From contig OZ024741.1 of NCBI GenBank assembly GCA_964016885.1, positions 200,818,001 to 200,882,000 of the forward strand: DNA of 64,000 bases, in the 5' to 3' direction. Of the stretch, positions 356-38,430 are shown piece after piece. Within the stretch, counting starts at the first letter, position 1; the number at the start of each line of letters is the position of its first letter. The notes beneath the pieces are model-generated. The model did no database searches. It was not told where the DNA came from and was given only the letters and a program-made list of their open reading frames with translations. The position numbers and the translations under genes are program-made. The DNA comes from Eledone cirrhosa (lineage: Eukaryota).

Positions 356-482
356 TATAGGAACCAGTAAGACCCCGACGGCTGAGCTCAAGCCGTTTCG
401 ACGGCTAATTCTGGACGCTTGAGTCCAGAATTAGCTGTCGAAACGGCTTGAGCTCAGCCGTCGGGGTCTTACTGGTTCCTAT
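356..482. repeat. Palindrome next to (TA)n; each arm carries the 3' half of a hammerhead ribozyme
   Basis: Arms 356-416 and 423-482 are near-perfect reverse complements; + arm reads GAAA-cggc-ttgagctca-gccg-TC (440-462). Related remnant at about 43905-43965, also in (TA)n. Confidence 0.75.
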
Positions 483-756
483 TACCCACTCTACTACGCT
501 AAGTATTGAGTACTTTGGTGCGTTATGGTCCACCTGGTTCCTTACCACATTTCCTTCGTTATATATATATATATATACATATATATGTATATATATAAAT
601 ATATATGTGTATGTATATGTGCGCGCGTGTGTGTGTGAGTGTGTGCGTGTACGTGCGTGCGTGTACGTGCAATCCATAAACGGAAATAACAAGGCAAGCA
701 ACACAGTAAAATGAAGAAATACATTAGTTTAACGCTTGATACAGTAGAAAAAAAAT

Positions 757-791
757 GTCTTTACGTTCGGACACTAGTCGTTCGTCAGAGG
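757..791 (-). ncRNA. Degenerate type I hammerhead ribozyme
   Basis: Minus strand cct-CTGACGA-a-cgac-tagt-gtcc-GAA-cg-TA-aag; downstream tail (aaactaatgtatttcttcatt..tgtgttgc) is homologous to the tail after the HHR at 35461. Confidence 0.6.
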
Positions 792-1039
792 TTAGAATGA
801 AAAATAATAGACGAAATAGAAAGATAGAGAGTGAGAAGAGAAAGGAACGCAAACGAATTTTTTTAGAGAAACACGTGCGTGTTCAGTCAGCCATAAGTAT
901 TTTAACCGGGTAACTATGTTTGTATGCGTGTGTGTGTGCGCTTTTTGATTGCGTGTTAGAATATGAAATTCACAATAATTTCAAATATTCCTCTGTTAAA
1001 CACGTGAAGTTTAATGTTATTTAACTATCAGCAGAATTG

Positions 1040-1160
1040 TGAAGGAACGCTGGTAGAGTGTTTCGTTCACGATCGTAAGGTCTTGAGTTCGATTCCTAGT
1101 AGTGCGTTGTGTCTTTGGGCAAGACACTTTATTTCACTTTACTCCATTACACTCATTTGA
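1040..1160 (+). mobile_element. tRNA-derived SINE head fragment
   Basis: A-box-like gctggtagagtg, B-box gagttcgattcc, followed by gttgtgtctttgggcaagacact core also seen at 24262 and 32290. Confidence 0.55.
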
Positions 1161-1431
1161 CCATCCGTAGAGAAAGGTAACCGAATGTTGTTTCTTACAA
1201 TTAGGTTACATGTGTCTACCTGACAAGCCCAGTCGCTAAAACTGAACTCTCTTAATCACAGGACCAATTGTGCTTAACTACGTGGTCTCTTAGTCTACTA
1301 AATATAGCAATTATATGGCACCCTATCCTGTAAAAAAAAACGGACACATTGGAGGATGTAGTCCGTGATACAGAATACATGAGGAAAGACTCGATAATCA
1401 TGGCTAGAATACTTTCGATTATATGTTTGCC

Positions 1432-1545
1432 TCCTTTCATCCTTACGGGGTCGTTAAAATAAAGCACCGGTAACGTACTGGGGTCGATTTAGTCGACTTT
1501 GCCCTCCCCCAAATTACTGGTCTTGTGCCTATACTAGAAATCATT
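1432..1545 (+). mobile_element. SINE 3' half (major family)
   Basis: cctttcatccttacggggtcgttaaaataaag...cttgtgcctatactagaaa matches the copies at 28106 and 55603. Confidence 0.65.
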
Positions 1546-35699: not shown

Positions 35700-36900
35700 T
35701 AGGGGACAATACAATAGACAGGGACATTGGGGTTTTTACATAAACATCGAGTAAAAAAAAGCAAAGCCATAACAATAAACAAGAAAAATACAACAATGAA
35801 AATTCCCCAATATGGGGGATAACTAGGCAGGGTTGATTCAGGTACTCTACCAATCCTGAACCACCCGACCGAGGCTTCGAGGGCGACCGGAAAGGGGACC
35901 TCCTTTCCTCCTCAAATTAACCAGTCTACAGCCGCATGATCAGAGTAGGCCCATTCACACGGGCCATTCTCGCCACATTCACCCACATTTCAGCAAATGT
36001 ACTGGAAGTGGGGCAGCACTTAATTCTCCACCCTCACCTTCCTTTCCAAGTGAAATTTTAAAAGGTTGATGAGGGATTGGCCGAAGAGAAAAGTGTCTGT
36101 CTTCAGTCCTTTCAACATGGTTCACTACTGCCACCAGACAGACGAAAATTGCCTGCCCTTCCTGGCCAAAAGAAGACGGCGGGTCCATCTTCACTATGGA
36201 CTCGGCCGATAGCCGGATCCATTCTACACGCGACAACAGCTGTTTGACATAGCTCTACAAGTCAGTTATGCACGGACACTGGACGAGTGCGTGCGGAACG
36301 GTTTCGTCACCCTGCGCGCATCTCGAGCACGTCTGTCTGACAGCACCTCAGTGCCTGTAGAGTTTACCTCGAACCGGCAGAAGTTATCCATCGTTCCTGG
36401 CTCGAAAATTCTCCGGAACAGACTGGTTAGTTCGACTTCGTCGACGTCCAAAACCTCTCCGAGTGCGTCGTCGCACTTGCCCACTACTAACCTTCTATAG
36501 AACTCGAGAGTGTAAGTTACACTGACAGCATTGCCCACCTGGTAGAGAGCAGTGATGCCTGGCAAAATTCCAGATGCCAGGCGCTCAGTCTCGGCCTCTT
36601 CTTGACCCAGGACTGCAGCTCAGTCAAAGAGACGAGCTGCGGAAAGGACAAACGACGACCACACCTGTTCACCGTTTGGGCAGAATACCTGGAGAGGCCG
36701 CAGCCTCAGCGCATGTTTCTGCATCATTAAGCACAGCACGCCCAACCCTCCACATAGAGAGTGCTGGCAGCAGAGGGACGCCTCGCCAACGGAACCGGCC
36801 CCTCCACAAGAAGTTGAAGAGAAGCCGTTCCAATTTGACAAGGCACAAACGGGGGTAAAACACGACGGTCAGGTAAAAACAAAGGGGAGTAATCGACAGT
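35700..36900 (-). pseudogene. Tx1/L1-like non-LTR retrotransposon 3' fragment
   Basis: KLERLLFNFLWRG, a decayed C..C...HA zinc-knuckle region (36290-36330) and AIFVCLVAVV; GC-richer than flanks; frameshifted. Confidence 0.5.
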
Positions 36901-36944
36901 CCTGTTTCTCACTCGTTAGCGGTTATTAAGACTACTTATCTCTT

Positions 36945-37475
36945 CGCTTCCGCCAAGAACTATAGAAGCTGGATTCTTCTAGAATTCCAGTAATGTTTAA
37001 GAGCTGATTAAGCAGAGCGGTTGCCGGTCCAGAAAAAGTTGGTTATTAGTATTGGTACTCTGAAATAACGATGTATATATGAATGTATGTATAGTATATT
37101 TGATAACATACTGTATGTTTAATTAAAAACATTTTTAAGACCATTTGCCGACAATAAGTAAGTGACATAGTCACTACTTTAAAATTCATAGCGAATGGTC
37201 TTCAAAATGTGTTTAATTAAACATACGGTATATTATCAAATATACTATGCATACATTCATACATACATTACTATTTCAGAGCACCAATACCCACATTTTG
37301 CTGGACCGGCAACCGCTCTGTTTAATCAGCTCTTAAATATTACTGGAATTCTATAAGAATCCAGCTTCTATAACTCTCAGCAGAAACGAAGGATATACAG
37401 TAATATACAGTATGTTATCAAATATGCTATACAGACGTTCATATATACATCACTATTTCAGAGTACCAATGCTAA
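36945..37475. repeat. Diverged foldback element
   Basis: Arms about 36945-37150 and 37190-37390; 37403-37475 repeats part of the right arm in tandem. Confidence 0.75.
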
Positions 37476-37492
37476 TATATATATATATATAT

Positions 37493-37916
37493 ATAAGTAT
37501 GTATACGTACATACATATATGTATACATATATGTATACAGACGTACACTAGTATGTATATACATACATACATGCACACATATATATATGTACGTATGGGT
37601 TTACCGAACATTTATTTTAATGCTCGGTTTGTTTGTAAACAAAGGTATAGGAAGGTATACGGTGCTGATGAGTGCTAATAAGCTAGAAACTAGTTCATCG
37701 TTCCTTTGTCAGTGTTGAACAAAAGGGCAACGATGGTTGCCGAAAACTGTACGGCTAATATTTCGGACTTTTTGTTTACAAACAAACCGAGCATTATAAT
37801 AAATGTTCGGTAAACCCATACGTACATATATATATATATGTGTGTGCATGTATGTATGTATATACATACTAGTGTACGTCTGTATACATATATGCATGTA
37901 CGTATACATACTTATA
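37493..37916. mobile_element. Inverted repeat element with an HHR between its arms
   Basis: Arms about 37493-37643 and 37771-37916; HHR cggtg-CTGATGA-gtgctaataagcta-GAAA-ctag-TT-catcg at 37660-37700 (+). Confidence 0.75.
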
Positions 37917-38233
37917 TTTAAGTATCAGCCGTACTAAGAGTGAGAAATGAAATTTCATTTTTTCAATTTATATATATATATATATATATATATATATATA
38001 TGTATATATATATATATATATATATATATATATATATATATATATATATATATATATATATATATATATATATATATATATATATATATATATATATATA
38101 TATATATACGGGTGTGTATGATTGTGTATAGAAGATTATATTAATAAGAGGAATTCCAACTTTGTCTGATTTACTCGTTTTATTTACAATCCTTTAAAAT
38201 ATATTATGGTATTATAATGAAATAGTATGATAG

Positions 38234-38430
38234 AGTATTAAATTCTAAGTGTTAATTGAACAAGTACTTTCATGCTTTCGCAATCTTCAGGTTCATAATA
38301 TGTGGTGACAGTCAAGTTTGCAATTTTTAACTGTTGAAAATTGCAAACTTGACTGTCACCACATATTATGAACCTGAAGATTGCGAAAGCATGAAAGTAC
38401 TTGTTCAATTAACACTTAGAATTTAATACT
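38234..38430. repeat. Near-perfect palindrome with two complete minimal HHRs
   Basis: + arm tgaac-CTGAAGA-t-tgc(gaaa)gca-t-GAAA-gtac-TT-gttca at 38369-38407; mirror copy at 38257-38295. Confidence 0.88.

What the first reader, a model, noticed from the sequence alone, without database searches (positions are those of the whole stretch)
356..38430. Recurrent HHR-bearing palindromes at (TA)n: miniature versions of the large PLE insertion
Seen: at least eight mostly unrelated inverted repeats (356-482, 3752-3912, 4299-4520, 6259-6569, 24058-24780, 27091-28728, 37493-37916, 38234-38430). All have 3' tails pointing outward, 5'-truncated ends fused centrally, an HHR or half-HHR in or between the arms, and usually adjacent (TA)n. 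They look like MITEs but are not. Inference: a general two-ended TPRT mechanism of microsatellite-targeting PLE machinery produces genomic hairpins at high density. If transcribed they form long dsRNA, relevant to ADAR editing and small RNAs if the host is a cephalopod.
Basis: partly seen in the sequence, partly recalled or inferred. Interest (0 to 1): 0.72.

Follow-up and report, generated by a model that had tools for sequence, protein, structure and literature searches.

The report
Head-to-head retroelement ends in (TA)n
The eight short palindromes are real copies of dispersed repeat families lodged in TA microsatellites and built like the large Penelope-like retrotransposon beside them (two 3' ends pointing outward); they were likely made by that element type's copying machinery priming on both sides of one break, an architecture already described for full-size elements.

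Summary
All eight inverted repeats exist at or near the stated coordinates. None is unique: each belongs to a family with 505 to 2488 first-look candidates in the 3.0-Gb genome. Their element ends abut (TA)n in 15 of 18 cases, against 3.7% expected by chance. They share the anatomy of the autonomous Penelope-like element (PLE) at 8978-19879. The arms read outward, and 5'-truncated ends meet in the centre. One outer end is the complete 3' terminus; the other stops 23-190 nt short at an internal TA patch. The same PLE family also made a 484-bp mini-palindrome elsewhere. Central junctions differ between copies in five families. Head-to-head pairs outnumber tail-to-tail pairs 35 to 2. In one family, half of the variants occur in both arms. 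Full hammerhead-like motifs occur in only two of the eight palindromes, and Rfam finds none at its thresholds. A half motif (GAAA, palindrome, H) sits in seven of eight, always on the outward strand. This is the tandem/inverted, one-sided-tail, (TA)n-targeting architecture already published for PLEs, seen here in miniature and at high copy number. The dsRNA/ADAR idea and the cephalopod host are untested.

The parts
360..559 (.). P1 element: 120-nt palindrome (360-479) plus an 80-nt extension on the right (long end); (TA)n on both sides
   Evidence: 2114 first-look candidates; all 40 scored places full length at 93-98%
3709..3943 (.). P2 element: short end at 3709, arms 3752-3822/3841-3911, 18-nt asymmetric centre. 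The right end reaches the family's true terminus (..CCTCACTTTCTAA) with an internal deletion.
   Evidence: 721 candidates; 19 of 19 other copies have one long and one short end
3994..4022 (.). orphan 29-nt inverted copy of the P2-family terminus. Together with 3914-3943 it forms the palindrome whose centre is (TA)25.
   Evidence: (L064 flank)
4141..4520 (.). P3: long arm 4141-4409 (terminus ACAATAATGAG.. at (TA)n) and short arm 4412-4520, which ends at an internal TATATA
   Evidence: 1977 candidates; head-to-head distances 17-573 nt in 11 pairs, 6 tandem pairs
6226..6571 (.). P4: left arm with a 33-nt terminal extension (6226-6414); right arm 6416-6571 ends at an internal TATATA that runs into (AT)n
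   Evidence: the arm is the 3' end of a PLE about 1 kb downstream of a GIY-YIG ORF fragment in L041/L033, L038 and L032
8978..11468 (-). large PLE, inverted 5'-truncated copy; its complete 3' terminus (..AACTATAACCTCCTCC) lies at 8978 against (AT)n
11469..19879 (+). large PLE, sense array: one 5'-truncated unit plus two 3127-nt units with 860-aa RT + GIY-YIG ORFs (13638-16220, 16765-19347). It ends about 40 nt short of the terminus, at ..CTAACGTTTATA|(TA)n.
24062..24912 (.). P5: short inverted arm 24062-24255; longer copy 24256-24912 (325-nt centre, arm 24581-24775, extension to 24912); (AT)n on both sides
   Evidence: 505 candidates at 97-99%
27093..28729 (.). P6: short-end arm 27093-27238 at (TA)n; long-end arm 28578-28729, whose extension runs on past 28729
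   Evidence: 2488 candidates; 6 head-to-head pairs at 21-1333 nt
37493..37917 (.). P7: arms 37493-37643/37771-37917; 127-nt centre with a hammerhead-like motif at 37659-37701 (+)
   Evidence: 1812 candidates; linear copies at 95-97% lack the left arm; at least 7 junction types in 9 inverted copies
38109..38430 (.). P8: long left arm 38109-38331; right arm 38333-38430, cut at 38430; hammerhead-like motifs at 38369-38407 (+) and 38257-38295 (-)
   Evidence: 1578 candidates
5524..5569 (-). context: minimal type-I hammerhead-like motif (helix III ATGCAT) in a non-palindromic insertion between two TA arrays
6087..6157 (+). context: minimal type-I hammerhead-like motif (helix III ATGCGCAT), 30 nt before (TA)n at 6188

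Best explanation
The eight palindromes are head-to-head pairs of the 3'-terminal parts of Penelope-like retroelements and their non-autonomous relatives, inserted into (TA)n. They were likely made in single retrotransposition events in which reverse transcription was primed separately on the two sides of the break.

Shown:
- Each palindrome belongs to a multi-copy family.
- Both element ends lie in TA arrays.
- The sense strand reads outward in both arms.
- One outer end is the complete 3' terminus; the other stops at an internal TA-rich patch.
- Central junctions differ among copies in five families.
- The autonomous PLE in the window, and copies of it elsewhere, have the same anatomy at sizes from 0.5 to 11 kb.

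Inferred:
- The GIY-YIG endonuclease would open both strands of the TA array.
- One 3'-OH would prime at the true 3' end of the element RNA.
- The other would prime by TA/UA pairing at an internal UAUA patch of a second RNA of the same source, or of the same RNA used again.
- The two cDNAs would grow toward each other and be joined at whatever 5' point each had reached.
- Where the template is a short RNA with a fixed 5' end, the centre is constant (P1, P2, P8).
For: 1. Families and copy number.
2. TA flanks in other copies.
3. Long/short asymmetry:
- P2, 19 of 19 copies.
- P8, 9 of the 10 copies in which both ends were found.
- P6, 6 of 7 pairs.
- P4 second arms, 5 of 5 short.
- Large PLE. 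Its mini-palindrome L225 and the array end L227.
4. Link to PLEs:
- The P4 arm lies about 1 kb downstream of a GIY-YIG ORF fragment in 3 places (Pfam E=3e-7).
- The large element has RVT_1 + GIY-YIG.
5. Strand: hammerhead-like or half motifs lie on the outward strand in every pair.
6. Variable junctions.
7. Orientation bias: 35 head-to-head, 2 tail-to-tail, 15 tandem. With single-arm queries only: 14, 1 and 6.
8. One source for both arms: in P8, 33 variants are present in both arms and 30 in one arm.
9. Two separate primings: in L041 the short inverted arm carries the full 33-nt terminus while the long sense copy has only 10 nt of it. In the window, the inverted copy has the last 40 nt and 294 nt more at the centre, while the sense side has two further units. 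Neither arm can therefore be a copy of the other.
10. Published description of the same architecture and of (TA)n targeting: PMC8557442.
Against: - No RT or EN ORF was found next to P1, P2, P3, P5, P6, P7 or P8 copies in 178 loci (539 kb). Their dependence on a PLE rests on shared anatomy and motifs.
- The large PLE has no canonical hammerhead, while P7 and P8 do, so their partner must be another PLE lineage.
- P2 shows mostly one-arm variants (30 against 6), and 5 columns carry one-arm variants shared by two or more copies. This fits copying of a ready-made palindrome better.
- P8's right arm in the window ends at 38430 without a TA array.
- The genome search scores only the 40 best of hundreds to thousands of candidates, so proportions are biased toward complete, similar copies.
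- No insertion was seen happening, and the order of priming is unknown.
Confidence: 0.62

Rival explanations
1. Snap-back. A single cDNA primed at one side folds back on itself at a short internal palindrome and copies itself. The palindrome is a hairpin product of one priming event.
For: - Fold-back points often lie at small natural palindromes: CAAAAATAATTTTTG and TCTGATCAGA in the P4 family, and the P8 centre.
- Arms are 99-100% alike in P4, P5 and P8.
- Mirrored variants occur in P8.
Against: - In L041 the inverted arm holds 23 terminal nt that the long copy lacks.
- In the window's PLE, one side has the last 40 nt and the other has two extra tandem units.
- A self-copy could not contain what its template lacks, and it would give two equal outer ends rather than one long and one short.
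Confidence: 0.12
2. Ready-made hairpin retroposons. For the fixed-centre families (P1, P2, P8) the palindrome is part of the master's RNA and is copied as a unit. The long end is the 3' end, and the short end is the 5' end joined by TA microhomology.
For: - The centre is constant in all scored copies.
- The shared asymmetric centre columns are the same across copies.
- P2 has 30 one-arm variants against 6 mirrored, with 5 columns of one-arm variants shared by two or more copies.
- The short-end position varies slightly between copies, as 5' ends do.
Against: - In P8, half of the variants are mirrored in both arms (33 against 30). Copies are closer to their own reverse complement (0.963) than to each other (0.927). 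Unit copying without homogenisation does not predict this.
- It cannot explain the variable-junction families P3 to P7.
Confidence: 0.15
3. Palindromic MITEs of a TA-targeting DNA transposon (Tc1/mariner or Stowaway-like), whose TA duplications are hidden in the microsatellite.
For: - Short, AT-flanked, high-copy palindromes with near-perfect arms.
- A TA duplication cannot be excluded inside (TA)n.
Against: - Termini are not symmetric: one is 23-190 nt longer.
- Internal junctions vary, and head-to-tail tandems occur in the same families.
- The P4 arm continues into a PLE 3' UTR and GIY-YIG ORF.
- No transposase was seen.
Confidence: 0.04
4. Two independent insertions of the same abundant family into one hot TA array, in opposite orientation by chance.
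For: - TA arrays are repeatedly hit. The stretch 3660-6660 is a nest of at least six insertions separated by TA arrays.
- Families are abundant.
Against: - Chance predicts as many tail-to-tail as head-to-head pairs; 2 against 35 were observed.
- The 5' ends are fused without TA between them.
- Arms of 2197 and 156 nt are 100% alike.
- Mirrored variants occur.
Confidence: 0.04
5. Assembly artefact: fold-back chimeric reads or mis-joins at TA repeats.
For: - PMC8557442 notes that such structures trouble assemblies.
- The 2197-nt arms are 100% identical.
Against: - The same architectures recur at dozens of places on many contigs, with diverged arms (76-99%) and family-specific ends.
- The short contigs laid on the region could neither confirm nor refute any single junction.
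Confidence: 0.02

Closest known systems
Complex tandem/inverted insertions of EN+ Penelope-like elements (Craig, Yushenova, Rodriguez and Arkhipova 2021, PMC8557442; passages and section 11 read)
   Same: High 5' truncation, partial tandems, an inverted 5'-truncated copy at the 5' side, an extension ('tail') at only one end, and insertion into (TA)n. All were seen here.
   Different: - Here most cases are 120-850-bp miniatures from non-autonomous families with hundreds to thousands of candidates.
- The one-sided extension is 23-190 nt rather than 30-40 bp, and it is the real 3' terminus that the other end lacks.
- The paper gives no mechanism.
L1 twin priming
   Same: The second nicked strand primes reverse transcription internally by microhomology. 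The two cDNAs are joined, giving an inverted 5' part.
   Different: In twin priming the two segments are different parts of one RNA. Here both arms copy the same 3' region, so two template copies or two passes are needed.
Metazoan non-LTR retrozymes (Cervera and de la Pena 2020, PMC7229834, passages read; bioRxiv 10.64898/2026.07.22.740005, abstract and outline read)
   Same: Small non-autonomous elements with type-I hammerheads, thought to depend on PLEs.
   Different: - Retrozymes are head-to-tail arrays of 150-450-bp units with canonical hammerheads.
- The palindromes are inverted and mostly carry only half motifs.
- Rfam finds no hammerhead.
Minimal dimeric PLE hammerheads (cited in PMC7229834 as rare minimal type-I variants in PLEs; dimer action recalled)
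   Same: Short helix III formed by a palindrome, as in the motifs at 5524, 6087, 37659 and 38369.
   Different: Self-cleavage is untested. In five families only the GAAA-palindrome-H half is left.
MITEs and foldback elements
   Same: Short, AT-flanked, high-copy palindromes.
   Different: Asymmetric termini, variable junctions, tandem forms and a link to a PLE ORF.

Membership tests
EN+ Penelope-like element insertion | ORF with reverse transcriptase and GIY-YIG endonuclease | tested here: met
   - Large element: RVT_1 4.9e-16 and GIY-YIG 1e-4; DKG, CCHH and linker cysteines read.
- P4 parent: GIY-YIG 3e-7.
- No ORF was found beside the other six families.
EN+ Penelope-like element insertion | partial tandem units (pseudo-LTR) | tested here: met
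   - 3127-nt period in the window.
- Tandem pairs in P3, P5, P7 and the big PLE family.
- 346-bp unit arrays.
EN+ Penelope-like element insertion | inverted 5'-truncated copy fused at the 5' side | tested here: met
   35 head-to-head pairs against 2 tail-to-tail
EN+ Penelope-like element insertion | extension ('tail') at only one end | tested here: met
   One long and one short end: P2 19 of 19, P8 9 of 10, P6 6 of 7, and the large PLE with L225.
EN+ Penelope-like element insertion | microsatellite, here (TA)n, target | tested here: met
   15 of 18 element ends in the window abut TA arrays, which cover 3.4% of it. The same holds in other copies.
EN+ Penelope-like element insertion | hammerhead ribozyme in the pseudo-LTR | tested here: inconclusive
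   - None in the large PLE unit.
- Descriptor motifs in P8, and a near-motif in P7.
- Half motifs in five others.
Non-LTR retrozyme | head-to-tail repeats of 150-450 bp, each with a canonical type-I hammerhead | tested here: not met
   - The eight are inverted, not tandem.
- No Rfam hammerhead at gathering score.
- The 560-nt pair at 60781/61341 outside the finding is closer to this.
Non-LTR retrozyme | expressed as circular RNA | not testable with these tools
   No RNA holder listed.
Hammerhead ribozyme, type I | match to the curated covariance models | tested here: not met
   0 at gathering score. The best match is HH9 at 19.7 bits against 52, E=0.48.
Hammerhead ribozyme, type I | CUGANGA, helix II, GAAA, helix III, H, helix I in order | tested here: met
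   5 sites against 0.005 in shuffles: 5562-, 6095+, 38290-, 38374+ and 61341+. Of the eight palindromes, only P8 is hit.
Hammerhead ribozyme, type I | self-cleavage | not testable with these tools
   Needs transcription and a cleavage assay.
MITE of a TA-targeting DNA transposon | symmetric terminal inverted repeats ending at defined termini | tested here: not met
   The outer ends differ by 23-190 nt and the short end varies.
MITE of a TA-targeting DNA transposon | TA target-site duplication | tested here: inconclusive
   It cannot be read inside (TA)n.
L1-type twin priming | the inverted segment is the part of the RNA upstream of the 3' segment, without duplication | tested here: not met
   Both arms are the same 3' region.

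The most novel reading that the evidence does not exclude
The GAAA-palindrome-H motif kept on the outward strand of nearly every arm is not a decayed ribozyme. It is an RNA-RNA pairing (dimerisation) signal. Penelope-like RNAs travel as dimers held by the palindromic helix III of their minimal hammerheads. The dimer hands one template to each side of the opened TA array. This is why insertions are born head-to-head, with both arms from one source, and why short non-autonomous RNAs that keep only this half motif become perfect genomic hairpins by the thousand.
Probability: 0.15. Interest if true: 0.7.

Novelty: new member of a known kind. Interest (0 to 1): 0.42.

Why it matters
How Penelope-like elements integrate is an acknowledged open question. 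PMC8557442 names the tandem/inverted structures, the one-sided tail and the microsatellite bias as unexplained.

This genome offers thousands of small, young, easily aligned double insertions from at least nine families, one of them an autonomous element at 99-100% identity. In these copies each step leaves a readable trace:
- which end carries the true terminus;
- where TA microhomology was used;
- where the two cDNAs met;
- whether both arms share source variants.

This turns a mechanistic question into a countable one. The elements also seed the genome with near-perfect hairpins of 120-400 bp next to unstable TA arrays. These could matter for dsRNA formation and genome stability, though nothing here tests that.

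Tried and rejected
- Rfam at gathering score and at E<=10 on the whole window. The top 150 of 208 rows are all microRNA-like hairpin or TA noise; 58 rows were not shown.
- Rfam on 16 sub-loci: no usable hammerhead hit.
- RNA evidence: no RNA holder listed.
- Laying runs X1-X4 on 3600-6700. They are contigs of about 60-275 nt, and depths of 10^4-10^6 over most of the stretch show only that it is repeat-rich. No junction could be bridged. No statement on expression, editing or assembly can be drawn. The second read-laying run was not used.
- Pfam on the ORFs lying between distant P5 arm pairs (L136, L138): 0 families for 5 ORFs. Those pairs may enclose unrelated sequence.
- A BLAST census of inverted repeats in the window missed P1 and P3. 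It was used only for the TA-array fraction.
- A first arm-mismatch script was off by one base and was replaced.
- The search of earlier findings returned nothing for this place.
- Paper searches for palindromic or non-autonomous PLE derivatives (30 papers held at least 3 of the 4 terms, 12 were listed) turned up no description of such mini-palindromes. I read only listings and the passages cited. Supplementary files of PMC8557442, which hold its family and hammerhead tables, were not opened and may bear on novelty.
- Host identity was not pursued.
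Full report
WHAT IS THERE

The window lies at G000:C2:200818001-200882000 in a 2.996-Gb assembly of 1796 contigs.

One search gives these pairs:
- 6259-6414/6416-6571 (100%)
- 24110-24255/24581-24726 (100%, 325 nt between)
- 4299-4407/4412-4520 (96%)
- 38234-38331/38333-38430 (99%)
- 3752-3822/3841-3911 (99%)
- 27090-27195/28629-28734 (93%)
- a set of pairs inside 37475-38105

The 120-nt palindrome at 360-479 was read directly.

Next to them lies a large inverted repeat, 8978-11174/11469-13665 (2197 nt, 100%). 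It belongs to a Penelope-like element (PLE). Its 3127-nt units carry 860-aa ORFs with reverse transcriptase and GIY-YIG domains. The ORF shows DKG, CCHH and linker cysteines, so this is a canonical C-terminal-endonuclease PLE, not the Hydra clade.

NONE OF THE PALINDROMES IS UNIQUE

Each was searched against its own genome. First-look candidates, with the 40 best scored each time:

| Palindrome | Candidates |
|---|---|
| P1 | 2114 |
| P2 | 721 |
| P3 | 1977 |
| P4 | 829 |
| P5 | 505 |
| P6 | 2488 |
| P7 | 1812 |
| P8 | 1578 |
| Large PLE, last 250 nt | 1196 |

The large PLE's copies are nearly all 99-100% identical. These counts are lower bounds, and the scored copies are biased toward the most complete and similar ones.

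Comparing copies redefines the elements:
- P1 = 360-559
- P2 = 3709-3943
- P3 = 4141-4520
- P4 = 6226-6571
- P5 = 24062-24912
- P6 = 27093 to beyond 28729
- P7 = 37493-37917
- P8 = 38109-38430

With these limits, and counting the large PLE (8978-19879), 15 of 18 element ends abut a TA array. One does not (P8 right) and two are undetermined. TA arrays cover 3.4% of the window. The same TA flanks are seen at the other genomic copies.

SHARED ANATOMY

In every family one outer end is long and the other is short. The long end is the family's complete terminus. The short end stops at an internal TA-rich patch and runs straight into the microsatellite.
- P2: all 19 other copies have one long flank (..AATAACCGAGG..GTATAAAGAAA) and one short flank (L144's long flank is rearranged).
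- P8: 9 of the 10 copies in which both ends were captured (13 loci were looked at; 3 gave one end only).
- P6: 6 of 7 pairs.
- P4: the first arm carries a 33-nt extension, and the second arm stops at CCAATATATA in 5 of 5 inverted copies.
- P1, P3 and P5: extensions of 80, 158 and about 137 nt on one side.

The autonomous PLE shows the same asymmetry. Its inverted copy ends with the full ..AACTATAACCTCCTCC at 8978. The sense array stops about 40 nt earlier, at ..CTAACGTTTATA, followed by (TA)n.

WHICH WAY THE ARMS POINT

For P4 the answer comes from coding sequence. In L041 (=L033), L038 and L032 a GIY-YIG ORF fragment (Pfam 3e-7) is followed in the sense direction by about 1 kb of 3' UTR, then the arm, then (TA)n.

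For the other families it comes from hammerhead-like motifs. In each pair the motif is on the + strand in the right arm and on the - strand in the left arm.

PALINDROMES ARE MADE AGAIN AND AGAIN

- P4 family: linear copies continue for about 240 nt to a (TG)n. Inverted copies fold at three other points besides the window's.
- P3: 11 head-to-head pairs lie 17-573 nt apart, and there are 6 tandem pairs.
- P5: a zero-spacer palindrome (L120), the window's 325-nt centre, and others.
- P6: pairs 21-1333 nt apart.
- P7: the younger copies (95-97%) lack the left arm. Nine inverted copies show at least seven different junctions.
- The autonomous PLE family gives 6 head-to-head pairs at six different distances in 19 loci.
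- Among these is a 484-bp palindrome, L225. It has arms of unit 2868-3088 (short end) and 2869-3127 (long end), and it lies in TA repeats. This is literally a miniature of the large insertion.
- A 346-bp deletion derivative of the same PLE forms head-to-tail arrays that meet head-to-head (L226, L227).

Over five families, neighbouring arms within 3 kb are head-to-head 35 times, tail-to-tail 2 times and tandem 15 times. For the three families queried with a single arm (no bias from a palindromic query) the counts are 14, 1 and 6. Two chance insertions would give equal numbers of the first two classes.

FIXED-CENTRE FAMILIES

P1, P2 and P8 have the same centre in all scored copies. I asked whether they are copied as ready-made hairpins or remade each time. 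To do so I counted variants, relative to the column majority, that are present in both arms or in one arm only.

| Family | Copies | Both arms (mirrored) | One arm only |
|---|---|---|---|
| P8 | 18 | 33 | 30 |
| P1 | 12 | 3 | 3 |
| P2 | 20 | 6 | 30 |

Mirrored variants are not expected from independent decay.
- P8: both arms are repeatedly drawn from one source. Copies also resemble their own reverse complement (0.963) more than each other (0.927).
- P2: the counts lean toward copying of an already asymmetric unit.
- P1: too few variants to say.

HAMMERHEADS

Rfam gives nothing at gathering scores. On 16 sub-loci at E<=10 it gives only HH9 at 19.7 bits, E=0.48, at 37647-37718.

A type-I descriptor allowing a palindromic helix III finds 5 sites, against 0.005 per shuffle: 5562-, 6095+, 38290-, 38374+ and 61341+. 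Among the eight palindromes, full motifs are therefore present in P8 (both arms) and, by eye, in the centre of P7.

The half motif GAAA-palindrome-H is enriched, with 35 sites against 14.4 +/- 3.6 (maximum 25 in 200 shuffles). It sits in seven of the eight. P4 has a one-mismatch relative. The large PLE unit has no canonical hammerhead. 'HHR-bearing' is therefore only partly right.

MECHANISM

The published description of PLE insertions is Craig et al. 2021 (PMC8557442; passages and section 11 read). It lists:
- high 5' truncation;
- partial tandems;
- an inverted 5'-truncated copy at the 5' side;
- a 30-40-bp tail at only one end;
- (TA)n as the preferred target of Naiad and Hydra elements, possibly through the linker zinc-finger-like motif.

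The paper states that the mechanism is unknown.

The present data add constraints.
- In L041 the short inverted arm holds the full 33-nt terminus, while the 1.6-kb sense copy holds only 10 nt of it.
- In the window the inverted copy holds the last 40 nt and 294 nt more at the centre, while the sense side holds two extra units.

Neither arm can be a copy of the other. This argues against a single cDNA folding back on itself. It favours two primings on RNA: one at the true 3' end and one by TA/UA pairing at an internal patch. The two cDNAs would then be joined where they meet.

These steps are inferred, and the order of events is unknown. A fixed centre would then mean that both cDNAs reach the defined 5' end of a short template.

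WHAT IS NOT SHOWN

- No RT or EN ORF lies beside the P1, P2, P3, P5, P6, P7 or P8 copies in the 178 loci held. Their dependence on a PLE is an inference from anatomy.
- No RNA run was listed, and the contigs laid were too short to bridge anything. Transcription, dsRNA, editing and small RNAs are open.
- The host was not identified, so the cephalopod premise is untested.

VERDICT

It is an instance of a published architecture rather than a new mechanism. Its value is as an unusually rich natural record of PLE integration.

Noticed in passing
window 60781-61420: Two hammerhead-like motifs (CTGATGA .. GAAACTAATTAGT), 560 nt apart and in the same orientation. This is a head-to-tail pair, closer to a retrozyme or pseudo-LTR pair than any of the eight palindromes. 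Only the 61341 copy passes the descriptor.
   Followed up: partly
L226, L227 (G000:C4:15418600-15425000): A 346-bp deletion derivative of the window's PLE (unit 2876-3127 joined to unit 1-94) forms a head-to-tail array of more than 15 units. The array switches strand in the middle, so two arrays meet head-to-head. It has no hammerhead.
   Followed up: partly
window 13416-13665 and 40 other places: The autonomous PLE family is nearly all 99-100% identical across the scored places on many contigs, which suggests very recent or ongoing activity.
   Followed up: no
window 26131-26707 and 28096-28308: A SINE-like repeat (..TTCTACTTTAGGCACAAGGCC..GGGATTTGAACTCAG..) stands in tandem (205/179-nt period) and in inverted copies. 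In many other places the same sequence is joined directly to the inner end of the P5 arm. The P5 arm may therefore serve as a shared 3' module of several composite elements.
   Followed up: partly
window 3914-4022: A palindrome whose centre is (TA)25. Its arms are the 24-29-nt terminus of the P2 family: once as the end of P2 itself and once as an orphan inverted fragment.
   Followed up: partly
window 40009-40060 (+), 35461-35500 (+), 788 (-): Further hammerhead-like cores outside the palindromes. The motif at 40009 has helix III ACAATTGT and a 5+4-bp helix I. The motifs at 35461 and 788 are relatives of one repeat family, and the one at 788 is degenerate.
   Followed up: no
L087 (G000:C1:278825390-278828587): A relative of the P1 palindrome is inserted into a P3-family copy, showing nesting among these families.
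   Followed up: no
L193 (G000:C4:164192138-164195291): A P7-like hammerhead core (CTGACGA..GAAACTAGT) lies directly outside the long end of a P6-family arm. This is a possible chimera or link between the two families.
   Followed up: no
window 3700-6600: Short-read contigs of the species pile up to summed word depths of 10^4-10^6 over nearly the whole stretch, against about 10 at 4540-4950. Almost everything between the TA arrays here is high-copy repeat.
   Followed up: no
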